Below are positions 5,006 through 23,866 of a stretch of DNA of 32,000 bases, piece after piece; the stretch's first letter is position 1; every line of letters begins with the position of its first letter. Source of the stretch: Bellilinea caldifistulae (GTDB taxonomy: Bacteria > Chloroflexota > Anaerolineae > Anaerolineales > Anaerolineaceae); assembly GCF_001306055.1 (NCBI RefSeq), contig NZ_LGHJ01000016.1, forward strand, positions 120,001 through 152,000, in the 5' to 3' direction. Below the pieces are notes generated by a model. That model made no database searches. It saw nothing but the letters and a program-made list of their open reading frames with translations, and was not told the origin of the DNA. A program made the translations under genes and the position numbers.

Positions 5006-6253
5006 ATGCCGACCAAAATCAGTCTTTATATACATATTCCCTTCTGCCGCCATCGGTGTGCCTATTGTGATTTCAATACCTACGCTGGTCAGGAGAGCCT
5101 GATACCGGCCTACCTCAAAGCGTTGCAGGCAGAAATTGAACAGGTGGCGGTAAAGTTAAACTTCCCCCACGAAATTGGTACGATATTTTTAGGGGGTGGA
5201 ACGCCATCCTACCTTCCGGTTGAGGGGTTGCGAGAAATTCTCAATACTTGTCGGCGAGTGTTCCCGATTAGGGATGATTGTGAAATCAGCATCGAGGCAA
5301 ATCCCGGAACAGTACATCGCGAGGGTTTGTCTGAATTGCGAAGGGCGGGGTTTAACCGGATCAGTATGGGGATGCAAAGTGCGAACATCCACGAGTTGAG
5401 ACTGCTGGAGAGAGAGCATGATCCGATTGCGGTCATCCAAGCCGTCGCATCGGCACGTCTGGCCGGGTTTGAAAATCTTAACCTCGATTTGATATTTGGT
5501 ATTCCCGGACAGACTATGGATAGCTGGAAGAAATCCATCCACTTTGCATTGGACTTGAAGCCAGATCACCTCTCACTTTATGCATTGACGATTGAACATG
5601 GAACGCCGTTCAAGAAATGGGTGGAGCGGGGTTTGATTAATGTACCGGATGATGATTTGGCGGCTGATCAATATGAATATGCCTGCCAGATACTGGAAGA
5701 AGCCGGGTTTGAGCATTACGAAATTTCTAATTGGGCGTTGAAAACCGGTGACCGGTCAAAAATGTGCCAACACAACCTTCAATACTGGCGTTACCTGCCC
5801 TATATCGGTGTGGGAGCAGGAGCGCATGGCTTTTTGGAAAACCATCGAACGGTTAATGTGAGGGGGATAAAAGCATATATTGATAGAATGAATTTTTCAG
5901 TAGAAATGCCCTTTCCGGCCTCTTCGGCGGCTGAACAGGTGGGTGAACTGGATTTGTGGACGCAAATGCAGGAAAAAATGATGGTGAGCCTTCGCTTGCT
6001 GAACGAGGGGGTCGAGGCGGCTTCTTTCGCTCAACGATTTGGAGTTGAGTTAGAGGAAGTATTTGGGGATCAAATTGCCAGGTTGACCAGGCAAGGTTTG
6101 CTGAAATGGGCAGGCAGCTCAGATCAGCGGCGTTTGCGTCTTACTCAGCAGGCATGGCTTTTGGCAAACCGTGTTTTTCGGGAGTTTATCGGCTTGAAAG
6201 AACCGCCAGTTTTCCGTAAAAATGCTCATTCGACCACAACGCGGGTGCCGTAA
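5006..6253 (+). CDS. hemW: Radical SAM heme chaperone HemW (coproporphyrinogen III oxidase-like)
   Basis: 415-aa ORF starting MPTKISLYIHIPFCRHRCAYCDF (CxxxCxxC), followed by GGGTPS and a HemN_C-like tail. Its 3' end overlaps the convergent L,D-transpeptidase gene by 28 bp. Confidence 0.85.
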   Translation: MPTKISLYIHIPFCRHRCAYCDFNTYAGQESLIPAYLKALQAEIEQVAVKLNFPHEIGTIFLGGGTPSYLPVEGLREILNTCRRVFPIRDDCEISIEANPGTVHREGLSELRRAGFNRISMGMQSANIHELRLLEREHDPIAVIQAVASARLAGFENLNLDLIFGIPGQTMDSWKKSIHFALDLKPDHLSLYALTIEHGTPFKKWVERGLINVPDDDLAADQYEYACQILEEAGFEHYEISNWALKTGDRSKMCQHNLQYWRYLPYIGVGAGAHGFLENHRTVNVRGIKAYIDRMNFSVEMPFPASSAAEQVGELDLWTQMQEKMMVSLRLLNEGVEAASFAQRFGVELEEVFGDQIARLTRQGLLKWAGSSDQRRLRLTQQAWLLANRVFREFIGLKEPPVFRKNAHSTTTRVP

Positions 6254-8260: not shown

Positions 8261-8338
<78 letters not shown>

Positions 8339-8396: not shown

Positions 8397-8804
8397 TTAT
8401 TTCTCGCCTTTGGATTCAAAAAAATTGGTGTAGGCTTTATCCTCATCGAGGATGTGGTTGACCAGCCACTCCTTCAAGAAATTCATCATCTGGACACTCA
8501 GGCCGATTTTGCCCTCCTTGTATTGATTTTTGTAATCCATTACTTGTTGAGTCAGGCGATCATGAGATTCCTTGTGTTGGGTGTATTGAGGATAAGCGTG
8601 CTTGAGCATGAGCGCCTCTTCACTGGAAAAATGCCTGCGAGTATAGTCAACCAGCTCGTCAAGTATTTTTCCCAATTCTACCTGGCCTTTACCGACCTTC
8701 ATGGCTTCGTATAGTTGATTGATCAAGTTGACCAGCTGCTGGTGTTGTTGATCAAATTTGGAAATTTTTACCGAATAACGATCTTCCCACTTAATCAGTG
8801 ACAT
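8397..8804 (-). CDS. Hemerythrin-like metal-binding protein (bacteriohemerythrin)
   Basis: The ORF track gives 8397..8870. I prefer the ATG at 8804 (MSLIKWEDRYSV...), preceded by AGGAGAACAAG. His/Glu/Asp ligand pattern: DQQHQQL, RRHFSSEE, HKESH, WLVNHILDEDK. Confidence 0.8.
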   Translation of the reverse strand: MSLIKWEDRYSVKISKFDQQHQQLVNLINQLYEAMKVGKGQVELGKILDELVDYTRRHFSSEEALMLKHAYPQYTQHKESHDRLTQQVMDYKNQYKEGKIGLSVQMMNFLKEWLVNHILDEDKAYTNFFESKGEK

Positions 8805-8888
8805 CTTGTTCTCCTGTTTGCAATTGTTCATGCTCATCTGAATATAGGGTTTTTGTTGATGGGTATCCATAAATTTGGAGTAAATTTT

Positions 8889-9626
8889 TTAGGGGACAAA
8901 GCCAATCGCATAAAACGTCGGTACGAATAAGACACGTGTTCCCTCCAGCCATGCATGGCGGTCGGCTTTTTCTAGTGCTTCGATTTCTTCGGGTTTGCAA
9001 TAATTTTCCAGGTCTGAGCGGATGACCGACCACTCAAGATCAATCTCCTGCGGATGAGGTTGATCTTTTGTCCATTGAGCAGCCATAACCCCGCTTTCGA
9101 TGTCAATTAACCCCGCCGTCTCGAACCAGGCACGAATTTTTCGACCGGTGAAGGGGTCTGCGCCTTGATCGCGTAATGATTGAATCTGATATTTTCCAAT
9201 CGCACTCAGGGAGGATGGATAATCTATCCTGCCGCCGTAATCCGGTTCAGCCATGGCGATCACCGCGCCACCGCTACGTGTGATGCGAATCATCTCTTGC
9301 AGGACATTTGCTCCATTGACCCACATCAGAAAAAAATGACAAAAGCAATAATCCATGCTCTTCGAGACAAACGGCAGGTAATGAGCATCTGAACAAATCA
9401 GTGAGGCGGATGGCAGCAAAGTCTGAGTGATTTGCAGGCTCGAGAAATCTATATCCAGTCCAAATATACCGTTTTCGCCTGAAAATTCTCGCAATACTGC
9501 GCCGCTACCGCAGCCAACTTCCAATACCCGATTTAAGGGTTGTATTCCGGCTTTTTGGATCAGGTATGCGCGTAGTTGAGCCGTCCACCGGGCCTGTTGT
9601 TGATAGCGTTGATGCCAGTCTATCAT
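8889..9626 (-). CDS. Class I SAM-dependent methyltransferase
   Basis: The ORF track gives 8889..9674. I prefer the ATG at 9626 (MIDWHQRY...), which overlaps the upstream stop as ATGA. Motif I is VLEVGCGSGAVL, with downstream acidic and post-I motifs. Confidence 0.8.
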   Translation of the reverse strand: MIDWHQRYQQQARWTAQLRAYLIQKAGIQPLNRVLEVGCGSGAVLREFSGENGIFGLDIDFSSLQITQTLLPSASLICSDAHYLPFVSKSMDYCFCHFFLMWVNGANVLQEMIRITRSGGAVIAMAEPDYGGRIDYPSSLSAIGKYQIQSLRDQGADPFTGRKIRAWFETAGLIDIESGVMAAQWTKDQPHPQEIDLEWSVIRSDLENYCKPEEIEALEKADRHAWLEGTRVLFVPTFYAIGFVP

Positions 9627-10810
9627 GCTTCGGTCTGATTCAATTTTTGAGCATTTTGCCAGATTGTTGCCCAATCATCGGTGAGGAAATTGCCAAGAAG
9701 AATGGTTTTACCTTGCGCAGGTAGTACATCTCCATCGGGTTCAACGTAAAGCCAGGCGTTGCCAGCGCCGTCAAAATATTCTGCCTGTCCTTCGGTTTGT
9801 AATTCAAGACCGATGGGGTTTAACTCGGAGTAAGGTACTGGTAAGTCCCATACAAGGGACATCTGGTGAGCAAACGCATGCTCCTGCGCTTGTTGAAGGA
9901 TGGGTTTCAAGGAAGGGTCTTCAATCGTAAGACTGAGCGATTTAACATTCAATTCTGCCAGTTTTTCAAGGATTTCGTTCAGCCGATTCTGATTACGAAC
10001 GGAAATGGTCAGATGAACCGTTACAAAAAGGTCAGATGCAATCGAATCTCGGATGGCTTCCCAGCAGTATTCTTCCTGTTCGTCCAGCACAATCATCAAA
10101 TGATCGAGACCTGCCTGAAGGATATCCGAAAGAAATTTATGCTCGGAGAAGCGGTATCCGCTGGTCAGCACACCGGTTACCATTCCTATCCTTTCGGCAA
10201 ATTCAACCAGTTCAATTAGATCGGGGCGTAAAGCCGGTTCACCGCCCGTGAATATCACATGTGGAATGCCAGCGTTCCATGCTTTTTCCAAAATGGTTTG
10301 CCATTCTTTGGTCAGCAATTCCCTCTTTACCCTTTCAAGCGGGGTAGAACCGGTGGTACGGGGGGTAGGGGTAGCATAAGTCAAGGCGCAATCCAGCCGT
10401 AGCGGAGCACTCAACCGACGCTCATGCACATTCACGCGGTCAAATTCCAGATATGTAACCGGATCGAGGTCGGTTGTTTCAATCAAAGTCATCAACCGGT
10501 CACGGAATGAGATGAAATCTTGCCGGACCTGTTCTTTGCTGACCCGATATCGTTTGGATAATTCACTGGCGACTTCTTCTTCAGTATGCTGCTGGATGAG
10601 GTGATAGGCGTACTCTGCCCCCGTCTGATTGAGGTGAAGCACCGTTGAGGCATTGAGGATGAGTACACCGCTCCCATCCCCCTCGATTCGGAGATGAAGA
10701 CGATAGGGAAAGGCGGCTTCGGGTGGGGCAATGAAAGTATAAATCCCCGCTTCCAGTGGTTGGACGGGTTGAAAAATGCGATTGATAGTCTCTCGAATTC
10801 GATTGAACAT
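9623..10810 (-). CDS. Cysteine-less paralog of the adjacent radical SAM/SPASM enzyme (RRE-like N-domain plus degenerate rSAM core; predicted non-catalytic)
   Basis: The ORF track gives 9623..10888. I prefer the ATG at 10810 (MFNRIRETI...), with GAGGTGG upstream. It aligns by eye with the neighbour: GIYTF/GLYSF, RLHLRIEGDGSGVLILNAS/RLHLRIESDQSGTLLINAS, GIPHVIFTGGEPALRPDL/GIPHIVFTGGEPTLRDDL, AGLDH. However, CNNACAHC is replaced by ATPTPRTTGS, and the SPASM cysteines are replaced (AWLYVEPDGDVLPAQ versus MCIEPDGSVLPCQ). Only 2 Cys occur in 395 aa. Confidence 0.8.
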   Translation of the reverse strand: MFNRIRETINRIFQPVQPLEAGIYTFIAPPEAAFPYRLHLRIEGDGSGVLILNASTVLHLNQTGAEYAYHLIQQHTEEEVASELSKRYRVSKEQVRQDFISFRDRLMTLIETTDLDPVTYLEFDRVNVHERRLSAPLRLDCALTYATPTPRTTGSTPLERVKRELLTKEWQTILEKAWNAGIPHVIFTGGEPALRPDLIELVEFAERIGMVTGVLTSGYRFSEHKFLSDILQAGLDHLMIVLDEQEEYCWEAIRDSIASDLFVTVHLTISVRNQNRLNEILEKLAELNVKSLSLTIEDPSLKPILQQAQEHAFAHQMSLVWDLPVPYSELNPIGLELQTEGQAEYFDGAGNAWLYVEPDGDVLPAQGKTILLGNFLTDDWATIWQNAQKLNQTEA

Positions 10811-10824
10811 GGCCACCTCTGCTT

Positions 10825-12201
10825 TTAGTGGATGACATTTGTTGGAGTTTGTAAAGATTCGCGGGCGAGAGGACATCCGCCACCACATTCAACCACTAAT
10901 GCACAATCGTGACATTTGGCGGGTAGATTTCGGCGTTCTCTAAGCGATTGTGCCAGCTCGTGATTCCAGATTTGATCCCACGAGTCGGTGATGATATTTC
11001 CCAACGAACTGTAATAGGATTGACAGGGAAGTACACTGCCATCCGGTTCAATGCACATGTTATAGAGCGCGGCAGTGCAGCCCTTAACACCCAATTCCAT
11101 TTGAACAGGGTCAAAATTGCAGTATTCGGTTGGGGTGTACCAGATTAGGCGTTGGTTGTTTTGGGCGGTTTTGGCGCGGGCAATTTCCAGCAGGGCGGGC
11201 AGTTGATTTTCCGGAATGCCACTATTGACATTTTTGCCACGCCCGGCGTAGATCAGAGCGTTTAATCCCACAGTAGGCACTCCAATTTCTGCCAGAAAAT
11301 CAAGTGTAGCGCTTAAATGAGGTGCATTGTCTTTCAGGAGAGTTGTGTTGGTCATCACAAAAAGCCTGGATTGTAGGGCATTTTTCAAACCATCGAGGGT
11401 TTCCTGCCATGCTCCCTTATGCAATACCATTCGATCGTGAATCTCTGGAATGTGGGACTCAAAAGTGATTTGCACATGATCCAGACCGGCGTCAATCAAT
11501 TGGGAGAGGAAAGAAACATCCTTCAAGCGTCTTCCGTTGGTGTTAATGCCGGTGATTTGTCCATTTTGTTCGGCATGAGCTATCAGCAAAGGCAGATCGT
11601 CGCGAAGGGTAGGCTCGCCTCCTGTAAACACAATATGAGGGATGCCGATTTCCCAAAGTTTATCCAAAACTGAATACCAGAATTGGGTATCTTTTTCTGG
11701 GAATGCACGTGACCGGGCGTTATAACAGTGAGCGCAGGCATTGTTGCACCGGTAAGTAATTGCCAGGTCCATGCGGTACGGCCGGCTGGGATGTTTTGTA
11801 AATGGCGGAATAGTTTCAATTTCCAAATCACAAACCGGACAAACGCCTTCCGGGTTGATCAATGAGCGGAGCTGTTCGACAAACGAAAGGTAGTCCTGAG
11901 TTGCCTGTTGACGGGAAACCTGAAATAACCGCGTCAGCCAGCCAATCGCCTGATGTTCAGGAATTTTACTCAAAGCAAGGTAGGCCATGAGCGCTGCCGA
12001 TGGGTTGAAATGATAAATGCGGCTGGCGTTGATCAGTAATGTTCCGCTCTGATCACTTTCAATGCGTAAATGAAGGCGGGCTTTTCCGCCATTCTCTTCA
12101 ATCAAAAAGGAGTAAAGGCCGGCTGGCGGTGGAAAATGAACTTCCGAGGAGGAAAAAGTTCTGCGCAATTTTTCAATCCAGCGGGTTGAGAGGAAAGACA
12201 T
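10825..12201 (-). CDS. Radical SAM/SPASM-domain enzyme with N-terminal PqqD/RRE-like domain
   Basis: The ORF track gives 10825..12276. I prefer the ATG at 12201 (MSFLSTRWIEK...), with AGGAG 8 nt upstream. The rSAM motif is ITYRCNNACAHCYN (Cx3Cx2C), with GGEP present. The SPASM pattern is GCTAALYNMCIEPDGSVLPC ... CHDCALVVECGGGC. The N-terminal roughly 110 aa resemble PqqD-like peptide-recognition domains. Confidence 0.88.
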   Translation of the reverse strand: MSFLSTRWIEKLRRTFSSSEVHFPPPAGLYSFLIEENGGKARLHLRIESDQSGTLLINASRIYHFNPSAALMAYLALSKIPEHQAIGWLTRLFQVSRQQATQDYLSFVEQLRSLINPEGVCPVCDLEIETIPPFTKHPSRPYRMDLAITYRCNNACAHCYNARSRAFPEKDTQFWYSVLDKLWEIGIPHIVFTGGEPTLRDDLPLLIAHAEQNGQITGINTNGRRLKDVSFLSQLIDAGLDHVQITFESHIPEIHDRMVLHKGAWQETLDGLKNALQSRLFVMTNTTLLKDNAPHLSATLDFLAEIGVPTVGLNALIYAGRGKNVNSGIPENQLPALLEIARAKTAQNNQRLIWYTPTEYCNFDPVQMELGVKGCTAALYNMCIEPDGSVLPCQSYYSSLGNIITDSWDQIWNHELAQSLRERRNLPAKCHDCALVVECGGGCPLARESLQTPTNVIH

Positions 12202-12215
12202 CCTGAATCTCCTGA

Positions 12216-13913
12216 TTACCGTCCACCGCCAGCACAGGCGCAAGCGCAGCCAGCGCAAGCGCAGGCACATGCACAACCTCCGCCCCCTCCTCCGGAACGC
12301 CCGCTATAAGAGGAGGGTTTGGGCGGTGGATTGGTCTTATTCGTGATCCTTTCTGTGAAGGTGTTGACATTGCCTAATACACCGCTAGAGAAGGACTGAA
12401 CGCCTTTGACCATGGAGGCAGCAAAGTCTGAACCGGGCAGTTTCGGTAGAGTGACGCTTCCACCGCCTGTAGGGGTCGGGATAGTGGTTTTTGCCATCCC
12501 GCCGCCACTGGTGGAAGGAGCACTGCGAATTACGGGATCGTAACGCCACCACCACGTGGGAACTCGCACCGGTCCGCTTTGGAAGACTTCCCGTGTTCGG
12601 TCATCCCAACGGCGATCAACCATCGTCCAATCCATGACCTGTTCATAGACATCCGACTTAACTTCGGGTGTTTCGGCGGCGGCAACCTGCTGCCAGGCTT
12701 TTTCCATGATGGTTTTGTAATAATCAATGGTTTCTTTGCGGCTAAAGCCTTTCATTTTTTCTGAAACCGATTTGATCAACCCAATGACGGTATCTTGAAG
12801 TTTCGCTTCTTTCAACTTTTTGTTGGTCTGCTTGAAAGCCTCCAGGAATGTCATCTCGTAGGGTTGGAGATTTTCGGGTAATGGATCACTGATTTTCAAG
12901 ACGAGCGGTTCCCGGCTTTCAACGATGGCAGCCCCTTTTTTCAACACTGAAAACAGGATCATGGTTAACACTTTATCGAGAGGCTGCTCCATCAGGACCG
13001 CGGCTTCTACGGCGGTCAAACCGCGTTTAATGCCATGGCCCTCAACCGCAATTTTGGGCGGCAAATATTGTAATTTGCGCCGATTTGCCGCTACAGCCGA
13101 TAAAATGGGGATAATGAAGAAAAATCCCACAAAGCCAGCTGTGCATAATGTACCAATGATCGCCTCAAAGTCAACTGTGCGAAGATTGGGCGTTTCGGTT
13201 GCGACAACCACCTGAGCAGGTACGAGACGAATGGGGAATGAAGCCCCAAATTTGTAAGGGGTATAGACGTTGGCTTTTTCAGCGTACCACGTGTAATAAA
13301 CCCGACCCTGGTTGTCAAAACCCGACTCGACCGGTTCATTGCTGCCCGGCCAGTTGCCGGATGGGGTATGGTAGCGGGGTTCTTCGGGTTTTAAACCGGT
13401 CGGTAGTACAATGGTGAAATAGTATTCGGTGGTACCGCGAGTGAAATTCCGGTCGAAATTATTTGGAGTAATAACCAGGCTGGCGTACTCTTCGGCTTCT
13501 TGCAGGGTGGATTTACCCAATGCGCGTTCGACTTTTCCAACGTACACATGCAGAGTTCCCGTTTGTCCAGGCTGGATGGCATTACTTCCCAAATGGATTT
13601 CAACACCCGGATTGACATACTCCGAAGGGCGGATGAGGGTGGCTGGCTTTCCGTCAATCTCGGCAGAAATGGATTTTAAGTCGTAGTTTGAATTGGGCAG
13701 ACCAATATCTACGATGTCAATCGCATCCCGGCCGGGCAGGTTTTTGAAGGTAATGGTGTAGTCGAGGCTTACGCTGCCATCTGAATTGACAAAAACAACC
13801 ACCTCTTGTTTGGGAACTTCAAAGGACAGATTTTGGGCATGGACAGGCTGGATGCTCATACCGAGCATCAATGCAATGATCAACCATAAGAAAAAGAGAC
13901 GAAGAGTTCGCAT
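12216..13913 (-). CDS. DUF2207-like membrane protein with C-terminal Gly6-(Cys-Ala)n tail
   Basis: The ORF track gives 12216..14048. I prefer the ATG at 13913 (MRTLRLFFLWLIIALMLGMSIQPVHAQ, a signal peptide), with GGGAGGGTGAG upstream. Layout: beta-rich N-domain, one central TM segment (IIGTLCTAGFVGFFFIIPILSAVAA), a roughly 285-aa predicted cytoplasmic region, then the tail ...SGRSGGGGGGCACACACAGCACACAGGGR*. Confidence 0.85.
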   Translation of the reverse strand: MRTLRLFFLWLIIALMLGMSIQPVHAQNLSFEVPKQEVVVFVNSDGSVSLDYTITFKNLPGRDAIDIVDIGLPNSNYDLKSISAEIDGKPATLIRPSEYVNPGVEIHLGSNAIQPGQTGTLHVYVGKVERALGKSTLQEAEEYASLVITPNNFDRNFTRGTTEYYFTIVLPTGLKPEEPRYHTPSGNWPGSNEPVESGFDNQGRVYYTWYAEKANVYTPYKFGASFPIRLVPAQVVVATETPNLRTVDFEAIIGTLCTAGFVGFFFIIPILSAVAANRRKLQYLPPKIAVEGHGIKRGLTAVEAAVLMEQPLDKVLTMILFSVLKKGAAIVESREPLVLKISDPLPENLQPYEMTFLEAFKQTNKKLKEAKLQDTVIGLIKSVSEKMKGFSRKETIDYYKTIMEKAWQQVAAAETPEVKSDVYEQVMDWTMVDRRWDDRTREVFQSGPVRVPTWWWRYDPVIRSAPSTSGGGMAKTTIPTPTGGGSVTLPKLPGSDFAASMVKGVQSFSSGVLGNVNTFTERITNKTNPPPKPSSYSGRSGGGGGGCACACACAGCACACAGGGR

Positions 13914-13927
13914 CTCACCCTCCCGGC

Positions 13928-14290
13928 TTACCATTTCGGTTCCTCGGTCAACTGATAGGTTGTGTGACAGTAAGGGCAGGTGACTACGGGCGCTCCGGCG
14001 ACCATTTTGATGTCTTCCGGCTTTAAAGTTCCACCACAGGAACGACATTTGATGGCATCCATATTTACATTTCCGGGCAGATCAATTTTCAGAGTAACGT
14101 TGGTTTCGTCGGGTTTGGCTGATTTTCGCGTAGCCAAGAATACCAGCGCTAAGCCAATCCCCACCGTTATAACCCCAATCGGAATCCAACCCAATGAACC
14201 CTGATCGCCGGTAGAACCCCAGATGAACAACACCCCGAAAAAGATCAAAATTCCGCCGACGATCAAAGCAATAATTTTCCATGCGCTCAT
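13928..14290 (-). CDS. Small membrane protein (2 TM) with C-terminal zinc ribbon
   Basis: The track start at 14302 is TTG. I prefer the ATG at 14290 (MSAWKIIALIVGG...), preceded by GGAGGTGACC. There are two hydrophobic helices, then CRSCGG...CPYCHTTY. Confidence 0.75.
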   Translation of the reverse strand: MSAWKIIALIVGGILIFFGVLFIWGSTGDQGSLGWIPIGVITVGIGLALVFLATRKSAKPDETNVTLKIDLPGNVNMDAIKCRSCGGTLKPEDIKMVAGAPVVTCPYCHTTYQLTEEPKW

Positions 14291-14311
14291 GGTCACCTCC
14301 AATCAAAATTC

Positions 14312-14438: not shown

Positions 14439-17702
<3,264 letters not shown>

Positions 17703-17742: not shown

Positions 17743-17758
17743 TGGAGAGGTGGAGATG

Positions 17759-18141
17759 GCGGGAATCGAACCCGCGTCCGAAAGATTAGACCCACGAACC
17801 TCTACGAGCGTAGTTGGTCTTTGTTCTCACGGTGGATGCGCTGACCAACAGAACACATCCACCGCCAGCCGCTCGGACCCGAAAGTCCTCTTTCGCATTC
17901 TGCACGGCGAAGAATGCGGCAGCCTGACTTTGTCACGCCTGTTCTGCTACCGGTCAGGCAGCGGAGCAGACAGACGTGGCCTCACGAGGAGACCATTTGC
18001 GCTCAGCTCGGCTTAGGCAGCCAGAGGAAGAGCAGCGTAGTTTGTGCGATTGGCACTTATTTTTTGTGCTGATTTTACGAGGTCCGCACCTCTCGGCTCG
18101 CAGTCCGGGATCAGCCTCTCCCGTCGAGACCGTTCATCCCC
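17759..18141 (-). ncRNA. ssrA: tmRNA (ssrA), one-piece
   Basis: The reverse strand 5' end reads GGGGATGAACGGTCTCGACGGGAG. The 3' end reads GGACGCGGGTTCGATTCCCGCCATCTCCACC, a tRNA-Ala-like T-arm and acceptor. The internal tag frame at 18054..18013 follows AAAAAATAAGT and reads GCC AAT CGC ACA AAC TAC GCT GCT CTT CCT CTG GCT GCC TAA, giving ANRTNYAALPLAA*. Confidence 0.9.
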
Positions 18142-23785: not shown

Positions 23786-23792
23786 GTTGCTG

Positions 23793-23866
23793 TGGGCGGA
23801 ACAGGACTCGAACCTGCGACCCCATCCTTGTAAGGGATGTGCTCTAACCTACTGAGCTATCCGCCA
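23793..23866 (-). tRNA. tRNA-Val (anticodon TAC), with U1 opposite C72
   Basis: The reverse strand reads TGGCGGA-TA-GCTC-AGTAGGTTA-GAGC-A-CATCC-CTTACAA-GGATG-GGGTC-GCAGG-TTCGAGT-CCTGT-TCCGCCC-A. It is a good cloverleaf except that the first acceptor pair is T:C. Confidence 0.8.

What the first reader, a model, noticed from the sequence alone, without database searches (positions are those of the whole stretch)
9623..10810. Radical SAM paralog that keeps the RRE-like domain and GGE SAM-motif but has lost all Fe-S cysteine ligands
Seen in the sequence: the protein aligns by eye along its length with the upstream rSAM/SPASM enzyme. Shared blocks include G[IL]Y[TS]F, RLHLRIE-D-SG-L-[IL]NAS, GIPH[VI][IV]FTGGEP-LR-DL, AGLDH and EPDG-VLP.

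The losses are specific:
- CNNACAHC is replaced by ATPTPRTTGS.
- CPVCDLE is replaced by DPVTYLE.
- The seven SPASM cysteines are all gone.
- Only 2 Cys remain in 395 aa.

Its start is SD-led and its stop overlaps the methyltransferase start (ATGA), so it is expressed as part of the operon and is not a decaying pseudogene.

Inference: it is a pseudo-enzyme partner (substrate-docking or scaffold subunit) forming a heteromer with the active paralog. It would be an expanded analogue of stand-alone PqqD chaperones.
Basis: partly seen in the sequence, partly recalled or inferred. Interest (0 to 1): 0.72.

Follow-up and report, generated by a model that had tools for sequence, protein, structure and literature searches.

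The report
Cluster-less radical SAM paralog, conserved partner
A full-length copy of a radical SAM peptide-modifying enzyme has lost every iron-sulfur cysteine, yet it is kept under strict selection next to its active twin in hundreds of Anaerolineae genomes. It is most likely a non-catalytic substrate-binding partner for modifying an invariant cysteine-alanine tail on a membrane protein.

Summary
Window 9623-10810 (-) encodes a 395-aa protein from Bellilinea caldifistulae. It is 32% identical over 420 residues (E 9e-71) to the radical SAM (rSAM)/SPASM enzyme immediately upstream.

- **Cysteine loss.** All 12 cysteines conserved in the active clade are substituted or truncated away.
- **Not a pseudogene.** dN/dS is 0.03-0.08, the same as the active gene. 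All 80 genome orthologs are intact and lack the motif. 74 of 80 metagenome loci found by searching with the active gene carry it downstream.
- **Fold.** The AlphaFold2 model (pLDDT 85) keeps the peptide-recognition (RRE) domain, the barrel and a SPASM stub. Its best matches are PqqE, SkfB and SuiB.
- **Selection pattern.** The former cluster loop has relaxed. The RRE is more conserved than the active enzyme's RRE.
- **SAM binding.** Divergent orthologs in the same cassette have also lost the GGE motif.

The cassette encodes a membrane protein whose cytoplasmic tail, CACACACAGCACACAGGGR, is invariant at the protein level.

The best reading is a non-catalytic, RRE-bearing partner of the active paralog. 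Thuricin TrnC/TrnD is the nearest precedent. The heteromer itself is untested. A few loci keep this gene without an adjacent active enzyme. I found no publication describing the system.

The parts
9623..10810 (-). Cys-less rSAM/SPASM paralog (395 aa plus stop): the finding
   Evidence: ORF and Shine-Dalgarno site. 32% identical to the upstream enzyme, E 9e-71. Pfam Radical_SAM partial match (profile 21-111 of 166) plus PqqD, no SPASM hit. AF2 pLDDT 85.2. Foldseek best matches PqqE, SkfB, SuiB.
10478..10753 (-). N-terminal PqqD-like RRE domain of the Cys-less paralog (about aa 20-111)
   Evidence: Pfam PF05402 29.2 bits, aa 50-107. The AF2 model shows four strands followed by three helices. Mean pairwise identity is 0.52 in this clade against 0.42 for the same domain of the active clade.
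10331..10375 (-). Former [4Fe-4S]-binding loop (aa 146-160), now Cys-free and variable
   Evidence: Aligns to CNNACAHC of the active enzyme. Mean identity is 0.31 here against 0.80 in the active clade. Model confidence is low in this stretch.
10388..10390 (-). Cys141 (RLDCALTY), a cysteine gained at the end of strand beta1; the active clade has Leu here
   Evidence: Conserved in 81 of 81 close orthologs. Present in most deep-branching representatives but not all: P0252, P0256 and P0260 keep Leu.
10238..10246 (-). Retained GGE motif (FTGGEP)
   Evidence: Invariant in close orthologs. Degenerate or lost in the deep-branching orthologs P0259, P0261, P0274, P0275, P0279 and P0281.
9653..9850 (-). 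Cys-free remnant of the SPASM domain (WDLPVPYS ... YVEPDGDVLPxQG ... LGN..W..IW). The C-terminal CX2CX5CX3C block is absent.
   Evidence: Joint alignment. Hairpin-plus-helix part has mean identity 0.67. No Pfam SPASM hit.
10825..12201 (-). Active rSAM/SPASM enzyme with an N-terminal PqqD-like domain (458 aa): the paralogous neighbour
   Evidence: Pfam Radical_SAM 84 bits and SPASM 46 bits. 12 conserved Cys. The 458-aa gene call P0121 is 100% identical. No NCBIfam model reaches its cut-off.
12216..13913 (-). Membrane protein and presumed substrate. It has a signal-like N-terminus, an outside domain, one transmembrane helix (aa 297-320 of the 610-aa ORF) and a cytoplasmic region of about 290 aa.
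   Evidence: Hydropathy scan, with positive residues after the helix. Orthologs lie upstream of the enzyme pair in about 75 of 80 loci. Weak sub-threshold match to TIGR04222.
12219..12275 (-). C-terminal tail CACACACAGCACACAGGGR
   Evidence: The last 17 residues are invariant in all 71 loci scored, and the first two in 69 of 71. Synonymous codons vary freely at every position.
8889..9626 (-). Class I SAM-dependent methyltransferase; its start overlaps the paralog's stop (ATGA)
   Evidence: Pfam Methyltransf_11/25. Lies downstream of the paralog in most loci.
13928..14302 (-). Small protein with two transmembrane helices and a C-terminal zinc ribbon; first gene of the cassette
   Evidence: Hydropathy scan. 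CxxC...CxxC visible in the sequence. Conserved upstream of the membrane protein in about 70 of 80 loci.
8397..8870 (-). Bacteriohemerythrin, linked downstream only in the closest relatives
   Evidence: NCBIfam NF033749 161 bits. Found in L001-L004 and L026 only.

Best explanation
The gene encodes a structurally intact but catalytically dead descendant of an RRE-rSAM-SPASM peptide maturase. It arose by an ancient tandem duplication of the enzyme now encoded just upstream.

It can no longer bind the radical SAM cluster or the SPASM auxiliary clusters through the ancestral cysteine ligands. It therefore should not be able to cleave SAM reductively. This step is shown at sequence level.

Three parts have been kept under strict selection:
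- its PqqD-like peptide-recognition domain,
- the barrel scaffold,
- the SPASM beta-hairpin.

I infer that it works as the non-catalytic, substrate-recognising subunit of a two-paralog complex. In this model it docks the cytoplasmic C-terminal region of the co-encoded membrane protein. The conserved FTxx[IV]TxxTNPxP segment, about 20-30 residues before the tail, is a plausible recognition site. It then presents the invariant CACACACAGCACACAGGGR tail to the active rSAM/SPASM paralog, which modifies cysteines. The chemistry is unknown; thioether cross-linking or another Cys-directed reaction is possible. The downstream methyltransferase would act afterwards.

The complex, the binding site and the chemistry are all inferred, not shown.
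For: **Paralogy and complete ligand loss.** BLASTP E 9e-71, hhalign E 3e-81. All 12 Cys conserved in the active clade are replaced or deleted.

**Strong purifying selection, equal to the active gene.** dN/dS is 0.03-0.08 in 13 close genome pairs, against 0.04-0.08 for the active gene.

**Orthologs are intact and widespread.**
- 120 of 120 database homologs and 80 of 80 genome orthologs are intact and lack the motif.
- At least 558 species-level genome hits were found.

**Co-occurrence holds from both directions.**
- The gene order is conserved in about 73 of 80 genome loci.
- 74 of 80 metagenome loci found with the active enzyme carry the Cys-less gene downstream. Three more have too little sequence downstream to hold it.

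**The fold is retained.** AF2 pLDDT 85, pTM 0.84. The best PDB matches are the RRE-bearing maturases PqqE, SkfB and SuiB.

**The selection pattern fits a binding role**.
- The former cluster loop has relaxed: mean identity 0.31 against 0.80 in the active clade.
- The RRE is more conserved than the active enzyme's RRE: 0.52 against 0.42.
- The SPASM hairpin is kept: 0.67.

**SAM binding is dispensable.** The GGE motif is lost in divergent orthologs that still sit in the same precursor > active > Cys-less > methyltransferase cassette, with the same tail.

[quoted passage not shown] Only TrnC's rSAM cluster is essential, and TrnD mainly binds the leader peptide (PMC12093266).
Against: - No direct evidence of a complex exists.
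- No natural active/Cys-less fusion was found among the top 150 representatives. The apparent fusions are frameshift artefacts.
- A mirror-tree test on 18 genomes was inconclusive. If anything it favoured co-variation with the membrane protein (partial r 0.39) over the active enzyme (0.23).
- The active paralog has its own RRE-like domain, so a second one is not obviously needed.
- L025 and L068 have the Cys-less gene directly after the precursor, with no adjacent active enzyme.
- L086 has the identical tail followed only by a different cluster-poor rSAM-like gene.
Confidence: 0.55

Rival explanations
1. It is a stand-alone binder or chaperone of the membrane protein's cytoplasmic region or tail. 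It would hold, protect or regulate the tail, or hand it to the methyltransferase. It would not form a complex with the active rSAM enzyme or need one.
For: - L025 and L068 have the precursor followed directly by the Cys-less gene, with no adjacent active enzyme. L025 also lacks an adjacent methyltransferase.
- Independent cluster-less rSAM-like genes sit, with overlapping stop and start, after homologous membrane proteins. This happens with the tail (L086) and without it (L084, archaeal L085).
- In this window its stop overlaps the methyltransferase start.
- The highest partial co-variation is with the membrane protein (weak).
Against: - The active enzyme is adjacent or nearby in more than 90% of loci sampled from either direction.
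- The exceptions are metagenome bins or short contigs, where the active gene may lie elsewhere.
- The precedent for rSAM paralog pairs is a tight complex (PMC12093266).
Confidence: 0.22
2. It is still an enzyme. It would use the retained barrel, and possibly SAM bound through the GGE motif, for a non-radical reaction on the tail or another substrate.
For: - FTGGEP is invariant in the close orthologs, and the barrel is well predicted.
- Many clade-specific invariant residues exist: H266, W321, D322, Y327, Y355, Q366.
Against: - GGE is degenerate or lost in several deep-branching orthologs that keep the cassette.
- Other motifs conserved in the active clade are changed: NTNG becomes LT[DS]G, ITLES becomes [IV]VLDP, VMTNTT becomes VTVHLT.
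- A dedicated class I methyltransferase is already encoded next door.
Confidence: 0.08
3. The vacated cluster pockets are filled in trans. The cysteine-rich tail would insert into the Cys-less barrel, possibly together with the gained Cys141. It would ligate a metal or an Fe-S cluster there, making a substrate-completed metallo-site.
For: - The tail is a run of CxC motifs, invariant at protein level with free synonymous codon use.
- Cys141 was gained at the mouth of the former cluster site and is kept in 81 of 81 close orthologs.
- Tail-bearing proteins occur without an adjacent active enzyme (L086, L167, L025, L068).
Against: - This is purely inferential.
- Cys141 is absent from some deep branches.
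- The former rSAM loop is variable rather than re-optimised.
- I know of no precedent.
Confidence: 0.07
4. It is a decaying pseudogene or a misassembled duplicate with no function.
For: Loss of all catalytic ligands. The former cluster loop is variable.
Against: - dN/dS is 0.03-0.08.
- The ORF is intact in 80 of 80 genomes.
- It forms a conserved clade extending down to 31% identity.
- It has a Shine-Dalgarno site and its stop overlaps the next gene's start.
Confidence: 0.01

Closest known systems
TrnC/TrnD, the paired rSAM/SPASM sactisynthases of thuricin CD (PMC12093266)
   Same: - Two paralogous rSAM/SPASM proteins are encoded side by side and act on Cys-containing peptide substrates.
- They form a tight complex. 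Only one subunit's rSAM cluster is essential, and the other mainly binds the recognition sequence.
   Different: - TrnD still has all its clusters and cleaves SAM. Here the second paralog has lost all 12 ligand cysteines and the end of the SPASM domain.
- The substrate here is the tail of a roughly 565-aa membrane protein, not a secreted bacteriocin precursor.
- A complex has not been shown here.
PqqD/PqqE and other stand-alone RRE chaperones (MftB, lasso B1)
   Same: A PqqD-fold domain presents a peptide to an rSAM/SPASM enzyme. PqqE is the best sequence and fold match in the PDB.
   Different: - Here the RRE is attached to a complete but dead barrel plus a SPASM stub (395 aa against about 90 aa).
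- The active enzyme also carries its own RRE-like domain.
NCBIfam TIGR04347 'pseudo-SAM/SPASM protein' (Haloarchaea)
   Same: A curated family name already recognises rSAM/SPASM homologs that lack the radical SAM motif.
   Different: - This protein is not a member: 40.6 bits against a cut-off of 525.
- That family keeps a SPASM region.
- I found no paper that characterises it. The only paper using the term mentions it once.
Dead-paralog activators ('prozymes') of trypanosomatid AdoMetDC and deoxyhypusine synthase (PMC5201418, PMC3663545)
   Same: A catalytically dead paralog is retained under selection as an obligate partner of the active copy.
   Different: - The enzyme superfamily is unrelated.
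- Activation and heteromer formation are demonstrated there and only inferred here.
TIGR04222 membrane proteins with Cys-rich C-terminal tails, proposed MNIO (multinuclear non-haem iron oxidase) substrates (PMC12452194)
   Same: - A multi-domain membrane protein, rather than a short peptide, carries a Gly/Ser/Cys-rich C-terminal tail.
- It is encoded next to a peptide-modifying enzyme that works with a partner protein.
- The precursor here has a weak match to that model (E 0.0015).
   Different: - The match is below the model cut-off: 18 bits against 43.
- The enzymes here are rSAM/SPASM, not MNIO.
- The tail here is a fixed 19-residue sequence and is predicted to be cytoplasmic. Those tails were predicted to be periplasmic.

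Membership tests
Radical SAM superfamily (functional enzyme) | Three-cysteine motif (CX3CX2C or a variant) ligating the SAM-binding [4Fe-4S] cluster | tested here: not met
   No CX3CX2C in this protein, in 120 of 120 homologs or in 80 of 80 genome orthologs. The aligned loop is Cys-free and variable.
Radical SAM superfamily (functional enzyme) | Partial TIM-barrel fold | tested here: met
   AF2 pLDDT 85. Foldseek matches to PqqE, SkfB, SuiB, MoaA and anSME at E 2e-12 to 1e-6. Pfam PF04055 46 bits, but only profile positions 21-111 of 166.
Radical SAM superfamily (functional enzyme) | GGE motif contacting SAM | tested here: met
   FTGGEP is present and invariant in close orthologs. It is lost in several deep-branching orthologs.
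Radical SAM superfamily (functional enzyme) | Reductive cleavage of SAM to a 5'-deoxyadenosyl radical | not testable with these tools
   Needs biochemistry. Predicted absent because the cluster ligands are missing.
SPASM subfamily | C-terminal seven- or eight-cysteine domain binding one or two auxiliary [4Fe-4S] clusters | tested here: not met
   No PF13186 hit. All eight Cys conserved in the active clade's C-terminal region are replaced (S328, Y355, A365, a gap) or truncated away.
PqqD / RiPP recognition element | PqqD-family sequence signature and a fold of a beta-sheet followed by three helices | tested here: met
   PF05402 29.2 bits against a gathering score of 23.4. The AF2 model has strands at 22-60 followed by helices 62-72, 77-88 and 92-111.
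PqqD / RiPP recognition element | Binds the leader or recognition sequence of the substrate | not testable with these tools
   A candidate site is the conserved FTxx[IV]TxxTNPxP segment upstream of the tail. Binding is untested.
NCBIfam TIGR04347 pseudo-SAM/SPASM | Score at or above the curated cut-off (525 bits) | tested here: not met
   40.6 bits, E 1.8e-10.
Pseudoenzyme partner of an active paralog (prozyme-type; TrnD-like) | Paralogous to an active enzyme, catalytic residues lost, retained under purifying selection | tested here: met
Pseudoenzyme partner of an active paralog (prozyme-type; TrnD-like) | Consistent co-occurrence with the active paralog | tested here: met
   About 73 of 80 genome loci and 74 of 80 loci found with the active gene. 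Exceptions: L025 and L068 lack an active gene in the sampled flanks; L036 has only a divergent rSAM about 5 kb away on the other strand; in L044 none lies upstream and the contig ends about 0.7 kb upstream.
Pseudoenzyme partner of an active paralog (prozyme-type; TrnD-like) | Physical complex with, and functional effect on, the active paralog | not testable with these tools
   No multimer prediction or coordinates were available. The mirror-tree test was inconclusive. No natural fusion was found.

The most novel reading that the evidence does not exclude
The cassette may not be a bacteriocin-type RiPP pathway at all. It could be a housekeeping system of Anaerolineae that builds a protein-derived metal or redox site on the cytoplasmic tail of a membrane protein.

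In this reading the cluster-less paralog is a receptor. Its emptied Fe-S pockets, plus the gained Cys141, would accept the (Cys-Ala)n tail. Either the substrate would supply the ligands in trans, or the dead barrel would act as the permanent docking partner of the modified tail.

Three observations would fit this reading:
- the absolute invariance of the tail;
- the repeated independent appearance of cluster-less rSAM-like genes after homologous membrane proteins;
- the loci that keep the dead paralog without an adjacent active one.
Probability: 0.1. Interest if true: 0.85.

Novelty: new variant of a known kind. Interest (0 to 1): 0.62.

Why it matters
**For the radical SAM field.**
- These enzymes are normally treated as self-contained catalysts.
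- The TrnC/TrnD result of 2025 showed that a paralog pair can divide the labour between catalysis and substrate binding.
- This family looks like the evolutionary end-point of that division. The second subunit has shed every cluster yet is conserved as strictly as the catalyst across a whole bacterial order.
- It offers a natural system for asking what an rSAM/SPASM scaffold contributes apart from radical chemistry.

**For annotation.** Public records label these proteins 'radical SAM protein' or 'organic radical activating enzyme'.

**For discovery.** I found no published description of this cassette. It has an invariant Cys-Ala tail on a membrane protein, and its product and role in Anaerolineae are unknown. 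Anaerolineae are abundant in anaerobic digesters and sediments.

Tried and rejected
1. **Decaying pseudogene.** Rejected by dN/dS and by intact ORFs.
2. **Shifted cysteines.** Rejected. The joint alignment of 153 sequences shows replacement or truncation at all 12 positions.
3. **Membership of a curated family.** No NCBIfam model reaches its cut-off for this protein, the active enzyme, the membrane protein or the methyltransferase. The membrane protein has no Pfam hit.
4. **Natural active/Cys-less fusion as evidence for a complex.** P0348, P0283 and P0260 looked like fusions but are frameshifted or mis-called genes.
5. **Mirror-tree co-variation, controlling for ligA.** Only 18 genomes carried all six genes. 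Partial correlations were 0.12-0.39 and no significance test was possible. The result is inconclusive.
6. **All-pairs dN/dS with dS below 1.5.** This gave medians of 0.24-0.32. Those values come from saturated comparisons and I discarded them in favour of close pairs.
7. **Promoter and terminator scan of the cassette.** Counts equal the shuffled expectation, so it is uninformative.
8. **Tail-only protein search, to look for small stand-alone precursors.** The hits of 39-90 aa look like C-terminal fragments of the large protein at contig ends or mis-called starts, not true short peptides.
9. **Literature searches.** Five searches looked for a pseudo-rSAM partner or this Anaerolineae system. Nothing specific turned up. 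A sixth search on the membrane-protein family led to the MNIO paper (PMC12452194). Subscription-only papers are not covered by the library.
10. **Heterodimer structure prediction.** Not attempted. The tool takes single chains, restricts inputs to window or database sequences, and returns no coordinates or inter-chain confidence.
Full report
**Where and what.** The window comes from Bellilinea caldifistulae (class Anaerolineae). The 395-aa product of 9623-10810 (-) is identical to the public protein P0001 of that species. On the minus strand lies a compact cassette:

| Coordinates | Product |
|---|---|
| 13928-14302 | Small protein with two transmembrane helices and a zinc ribbon |
| 12216-13913 | Membrane protein of about 565 aa: signal-like N-terminus, outside domain, one transmembrane helix, roughly 290-aa cytoplasmic region ending ...GGGGGGCACACACAGCACACAGGGR |
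| 10825-12201 | rSAM/SPASM enzyme with an N-terminal PqqD-like domain |
| 9623-10810 | The finding |
| 8889-9626 | Class I methyltransferase, start overlapping the finding's stop as ATGA |
| 8397-8870 | Bacteriohemerythrin |

A tRNA-Pro gene follows at 8263-8338.

**Checking the observation.**
- The two rSAM-like proteins align along their whole length. BLASTP gives 32% identity over 420 columns, E 9e-71. Family profiles give hhalign probability 100, E 3e-81.
- I aligned 81 orthologs of the finding with 72 orthologs of the active neighbour.
- The active clade has 12 conserved cysteines: one in a CPxC between the RRE and the core, the CX3CX2C triad, and eight in the SPASM region.
- In the other clade these positions are Asp (94%), a variable Cys-free loop, Ser (96%), a gap, Tyr (100%) and Ala/Gly. 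The final CX2CX5CX3C block is simply missing.
- The cysteines are therefore lost, not shifted.
- Pfam agrees. It sees a partial Radical_SAM match (profile 21-111 of 166, without the motif-bearing start), a PqqD domain above threshold, and no SPASM hit.

**Is it a living gene?**
- The 120 best database homologs (52-100% identical, 375-398 aa) all lack CX3CX2C and carry 0-5 Cys.
The best 80 are all Anaerolineae or Chloroflexota. They include the isolates Anaerolinea thermolimosa, Levilinea saccharolytica, Ornatilinea apprima, Pelolinea submarina and Thermanaerothrix solaris.
- All 80 have an open frame of at least 384 codons and no motif.
- By the Nei-Gojobori method, in the 13 genome pairs close enough to escape saturation, dN/dS is 0.03-0.08 for this gene and 0.04-0.08 for the active neighbour.
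- Across all pairs it evolves only about 1.3 times faster at non-synonymous sites.
- It is as constrained as the enzyme.

**Linkage.**
- Starting from the Cys-less gene, the order zinc-ribbon protein > membrane protein > active enzyme > Cys-less paralog > methyltransferase is kept in about 73 of 80 genome loci.
- Starting independently from the active enzyme in metagenome contigs, 74 of 80 loci have the Cys-less gene downstream. Three contigs are too short to hold it.
- The remaining three have 0.7-1.9 kb of downstream sequence. That is no more than the 1.1-1.7 kb insertions seen between the two genes in a dozen other loci.
- I therefore found no clear case of the active enzyme without its dead twin.
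- The reverse does occur. In L025 and L068 the Cys-less gene follows the membrane protein directly, and no active enzyme lies in the sampled flanks.
- Some lineages have unrelated genes inserted within the cassette: lipid genes in L038, and a PAS-like protein plus a protein of unknown function in L166.

**How deep does the family go?**
- An exhaustive HMMER search of 1.84 billion cluster representatives found 83 relatives at E <= 1e-30.
- All full-length representatives of 369-404 aa, down to 31% identity, lack the motif.
- In a neighbour-joining tree (no bootstrap) they form one clade, separate from the motif-bearing sequences.
- Several deep members have also lost the GGE motif. P0281 (FTGGEP becomes MFLDVPEE) still sits, with overlapping stops and starts, in a membrane protein > rSAM/SPASM > Cys-less > methyltransferase cassette whose precursor ends in the same CACACACAGCACACAGGGR.
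- SAM binding is thus unlikely to be the conserved function.
- A cysteine gained at the end of strand beta1 (C141, RLDCALTY; Leu in the active clade) is present in all 81 close orthologs. It is absent from some deep branches.

**Structure.**
- AlphaFold2 with an 88-row alignment gives pLDDT 85.2 and pTM 0.84.
- The model shows an N-terminal beta-sheet plus three helices (the RRE), a beta/alpha barrel, and a short C-terminal hairpin plus helix.
- Confidence drops in three places: the RRE-core linker, the former cluster loop (146-160), and residues 321-350, which align to the first auxiliary-cluster cysteines of the active enzyme.
- Foldseek against the PDB returns PqqE, SkfB and SuiB first. SuiB and SkfB align over about 395-415 columns, including the N-terminal domain. 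Then come BlsE, DesII, AbmM, MoaA, EpeE and anSME.
- A profile search of PDB sequences also puts PqqE first.

**Which parts are under selection?** Mean pairwise identity by domain:

| Region | Cys-less clade | Active clade |
|---|---|---|
| Former cluster loop | 0.31 | 0.80 |
| Barrel | 0.52 | 0.65 |
| RRE | 0.52 | 0.42 |
| SPASM hairpin/helix | 0.67 | 0.74 |

Constraint has moved away from the catalytic loop and, in relative terms, onto the peptide-recognition domain. This is the pattern expected for a binding subunit.

**The presumed substrate.**
- In the 71 genome loci scored, the last 17 residues of the tail CACACACAGCACACAGGGR are invariant and the first two match in 69 of 71.
- All synonymous codons are used at each position. 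Selection therefore acts on the peptide, not on the DNA.
- Upstream lie a Gly/Ser-rich spacer of variable length and a conserved FTxx[IV]TxxTNPxP segment.
- The single transmembrane helix followed by basic residues places the tail in the cytoplasm, where soluble rSAM enzymes could reach it (topology inferred).
- The protein gives only a sub-threshold match to TIGR04222. That family comprises membrane proteins with Cys-rich C-terminal tails, recently proposed as substrates of MNIO enzymes (PMC12452194).

**Mechanism.**
- I consider the non-catalytic status shown at sequence level.
- The most likely role is an RRE-bearing docking or scaffold subunit. It would work with the active paralog on the tail, and the methyltransferase would act afterwards.
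- The closest experimental precedent is thuricin CD. There the paralogous rSAM/SPASM enzymes TrnC and TrnD are inactive alone and form a tight complex.
- Only TrnC's rSAM cluster is essential, and TrnD mainly holds the leader peptide (PMC12093266).
- The Anaerolineae pair looks like that arrangement taken to completion.
- The complex, the binding site and the chemistry on the cysteines are inferences.

**What argues for caution.**
- The active enzyme has its own RRE-like domain.
- No natural fusion of the two paralogs was found.
- A mirror-tree test was inconclusive and slightly favoured co-variation with the membrane protein.
- Besides L025 and L068, three metagenome contigs show a separate phenomenon. 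These are cluster-poor rSAM-like proteins of 440-460 aa, closer to the active paralog. Each immediately follows a homolog of the membrane protein:
  - L086, with the identical tail and no second rSAM gene in the contig;
  - L084, without a Cys tail;
  - L085, an archaeal contig carrying ribosomal protein L15e.
- A further homolog with a variant tail (CACACAGCACACACAGGGR) has no rSAM gene within 8 kb upstream or 2.3 kb downstream (L167).
- These cases keep two ideas alive. The dead barrel's primary partner may be the membrane protein itself. The tail may also have an intrinsic function, for example metal binding.

**Comparison with what is known, and novelty.**
- Dead paralogs that partner active enzymes are a known kind. 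Examples are the trypanosomatid prozymes (PMC5201418, PMC3663545).
- NCBIfam already has a 'pseudo-SAM/SPASM' family name for haloarchaeal proteins. This protein is not a member of it (40.6 bits against a cut-off of 525).
- Five literature searches found no paper describing a cluster-less rSAM/SPASM partner subunit, this cassette or this tail.
- I therefore rate it a new variant of a known kind, and the surrounding system as apparently undescribed.
- Public annotations call these proteins 'radical SAM protein' or 'organic radical activating enzyme'. The sequence does not support either label.

**Verdict.**
- Interest is 0.62. It is a clean, testable case that a radical SAM specialist would find notable, with a modest chance of leading to something stranger.

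Noticed in passing
window 12219-12275 (-); L001-L080 precursor ends: The 19-residue tail CACACACAGCACACAGGGR was scored in 71 genome loci. Its last 17 residues are invariant and the first two match in 69 of 71, while every synonymous codon is used. Upstream are a variable Gly/Ser spacer and a conserved FTxx[IV]TxxTNPxP segment. Such invariance is unusual for a RiPP-like substrate.
   Followed up: partly
L084:86-3108, L085:5822-8460, L086:305-3610: A second, independent group of cluster-poor rSAM-like proteins (440-460 aa, closer to the active paralog, no CX3CX2C) directly follows homologs of the membrane protein. L086 has the identical Cys-Ala tail. L084 has no Cys tail. L085 is an archaeal contig carrying ribosomal protein L15e.
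   Followed up: partly
L025:6214-9197; L068:4119-6958: In two Chloroflexota/Anaerolineales metagenome bins the Cys-less gene follows the membrane protein directly. No active rSAM/SPASM gene lies in the sampled flanks, and L025 also lacks the adjacent methyltransferase. Whether the active gene lies elsewhere in those genomes could not be checked.
   Followed up: partly
L167:6220-8264: A 31%-identical homolog of the membrane protein carries a variant tail, CACACAGCACACACAGGGR, in a 3+4 rather than 4+3 arrangement. It is probably split by an assembly frameshift. No rSAM gene lies within 8 kb upstream or 2.3 kb downstream. P0423 and P0437 show the same variant tail.
   Followed up: partly
window 10388-10390 (-): Cys141 was gained in the Cys-less clade at the mouth of the former cluster site, where the active clade has Leu. 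It is kept in 81 of 81 close orthologs but is absent from some deep branches.
   Followed up: partly
L038:5866-7982; L166:6363-7805: Some lineages carry 1.1-2.2 kb insertions between the active and Cys-less genes. L038 has three ORFs that, from their translations only (no family search), look like membrane-lipid genes: a CDP-alcohol phosphatidyltransferase-like, an acyltransferase-like and a PAP2-like protein. L166 has a PAS-like protein and a 341-aa protein of unknown function.
   Followed up: no
P0277, P0302 (representatives of the active clade): Some active-type enzymes carry an acidic helical insertion of about 100 aa between the RRE-like domain and the rSAM core.
   Followed up: no
window 13928-14302 (-): A small protein with two transmembrane helices and a C-terminal CxxC...CxxC zinc ribbon is conserved as the first gene of the cassette in about 70 of 80 loci. 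Its role is unknown.
   Followed up: no
window 8397-8870 (-): A bacteriohemerythrin gene lies just downstream of the methyltransferase. It is linked only in the closest relatives (L001-L004, L026). A link to oxygen or iron is possible but untested.
   Followed up: no
window 5006-6253 (+): An unrelated rSAM gene with an intact CRHRCAYC motif, HemN/HemW-like by sequence appearance, lies about 3.4 kb from the finding on the opposite strand. It was not analysed.
   Followed up: no
window 17749-18141 (-), 8263-8338 (-), 23792-23866 (-): A tmRNA gene (tag peptide ANRTNYAALPLAA), tRNA-Pro(GGG) and tRNA-Val(TAC). The ligA gene (14468-16519, +) lies divergently next to the cassette in this window and in many orthologous loci.
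   Followed up: no
P0001 and homologs: Public records name the Cys-less proteins 'radical SAM protein', 'radical SAM/SPASM domain-containing protein' or 'organic radical activating enzyme'. The sequences do not support these labels.
   Followed up: yes
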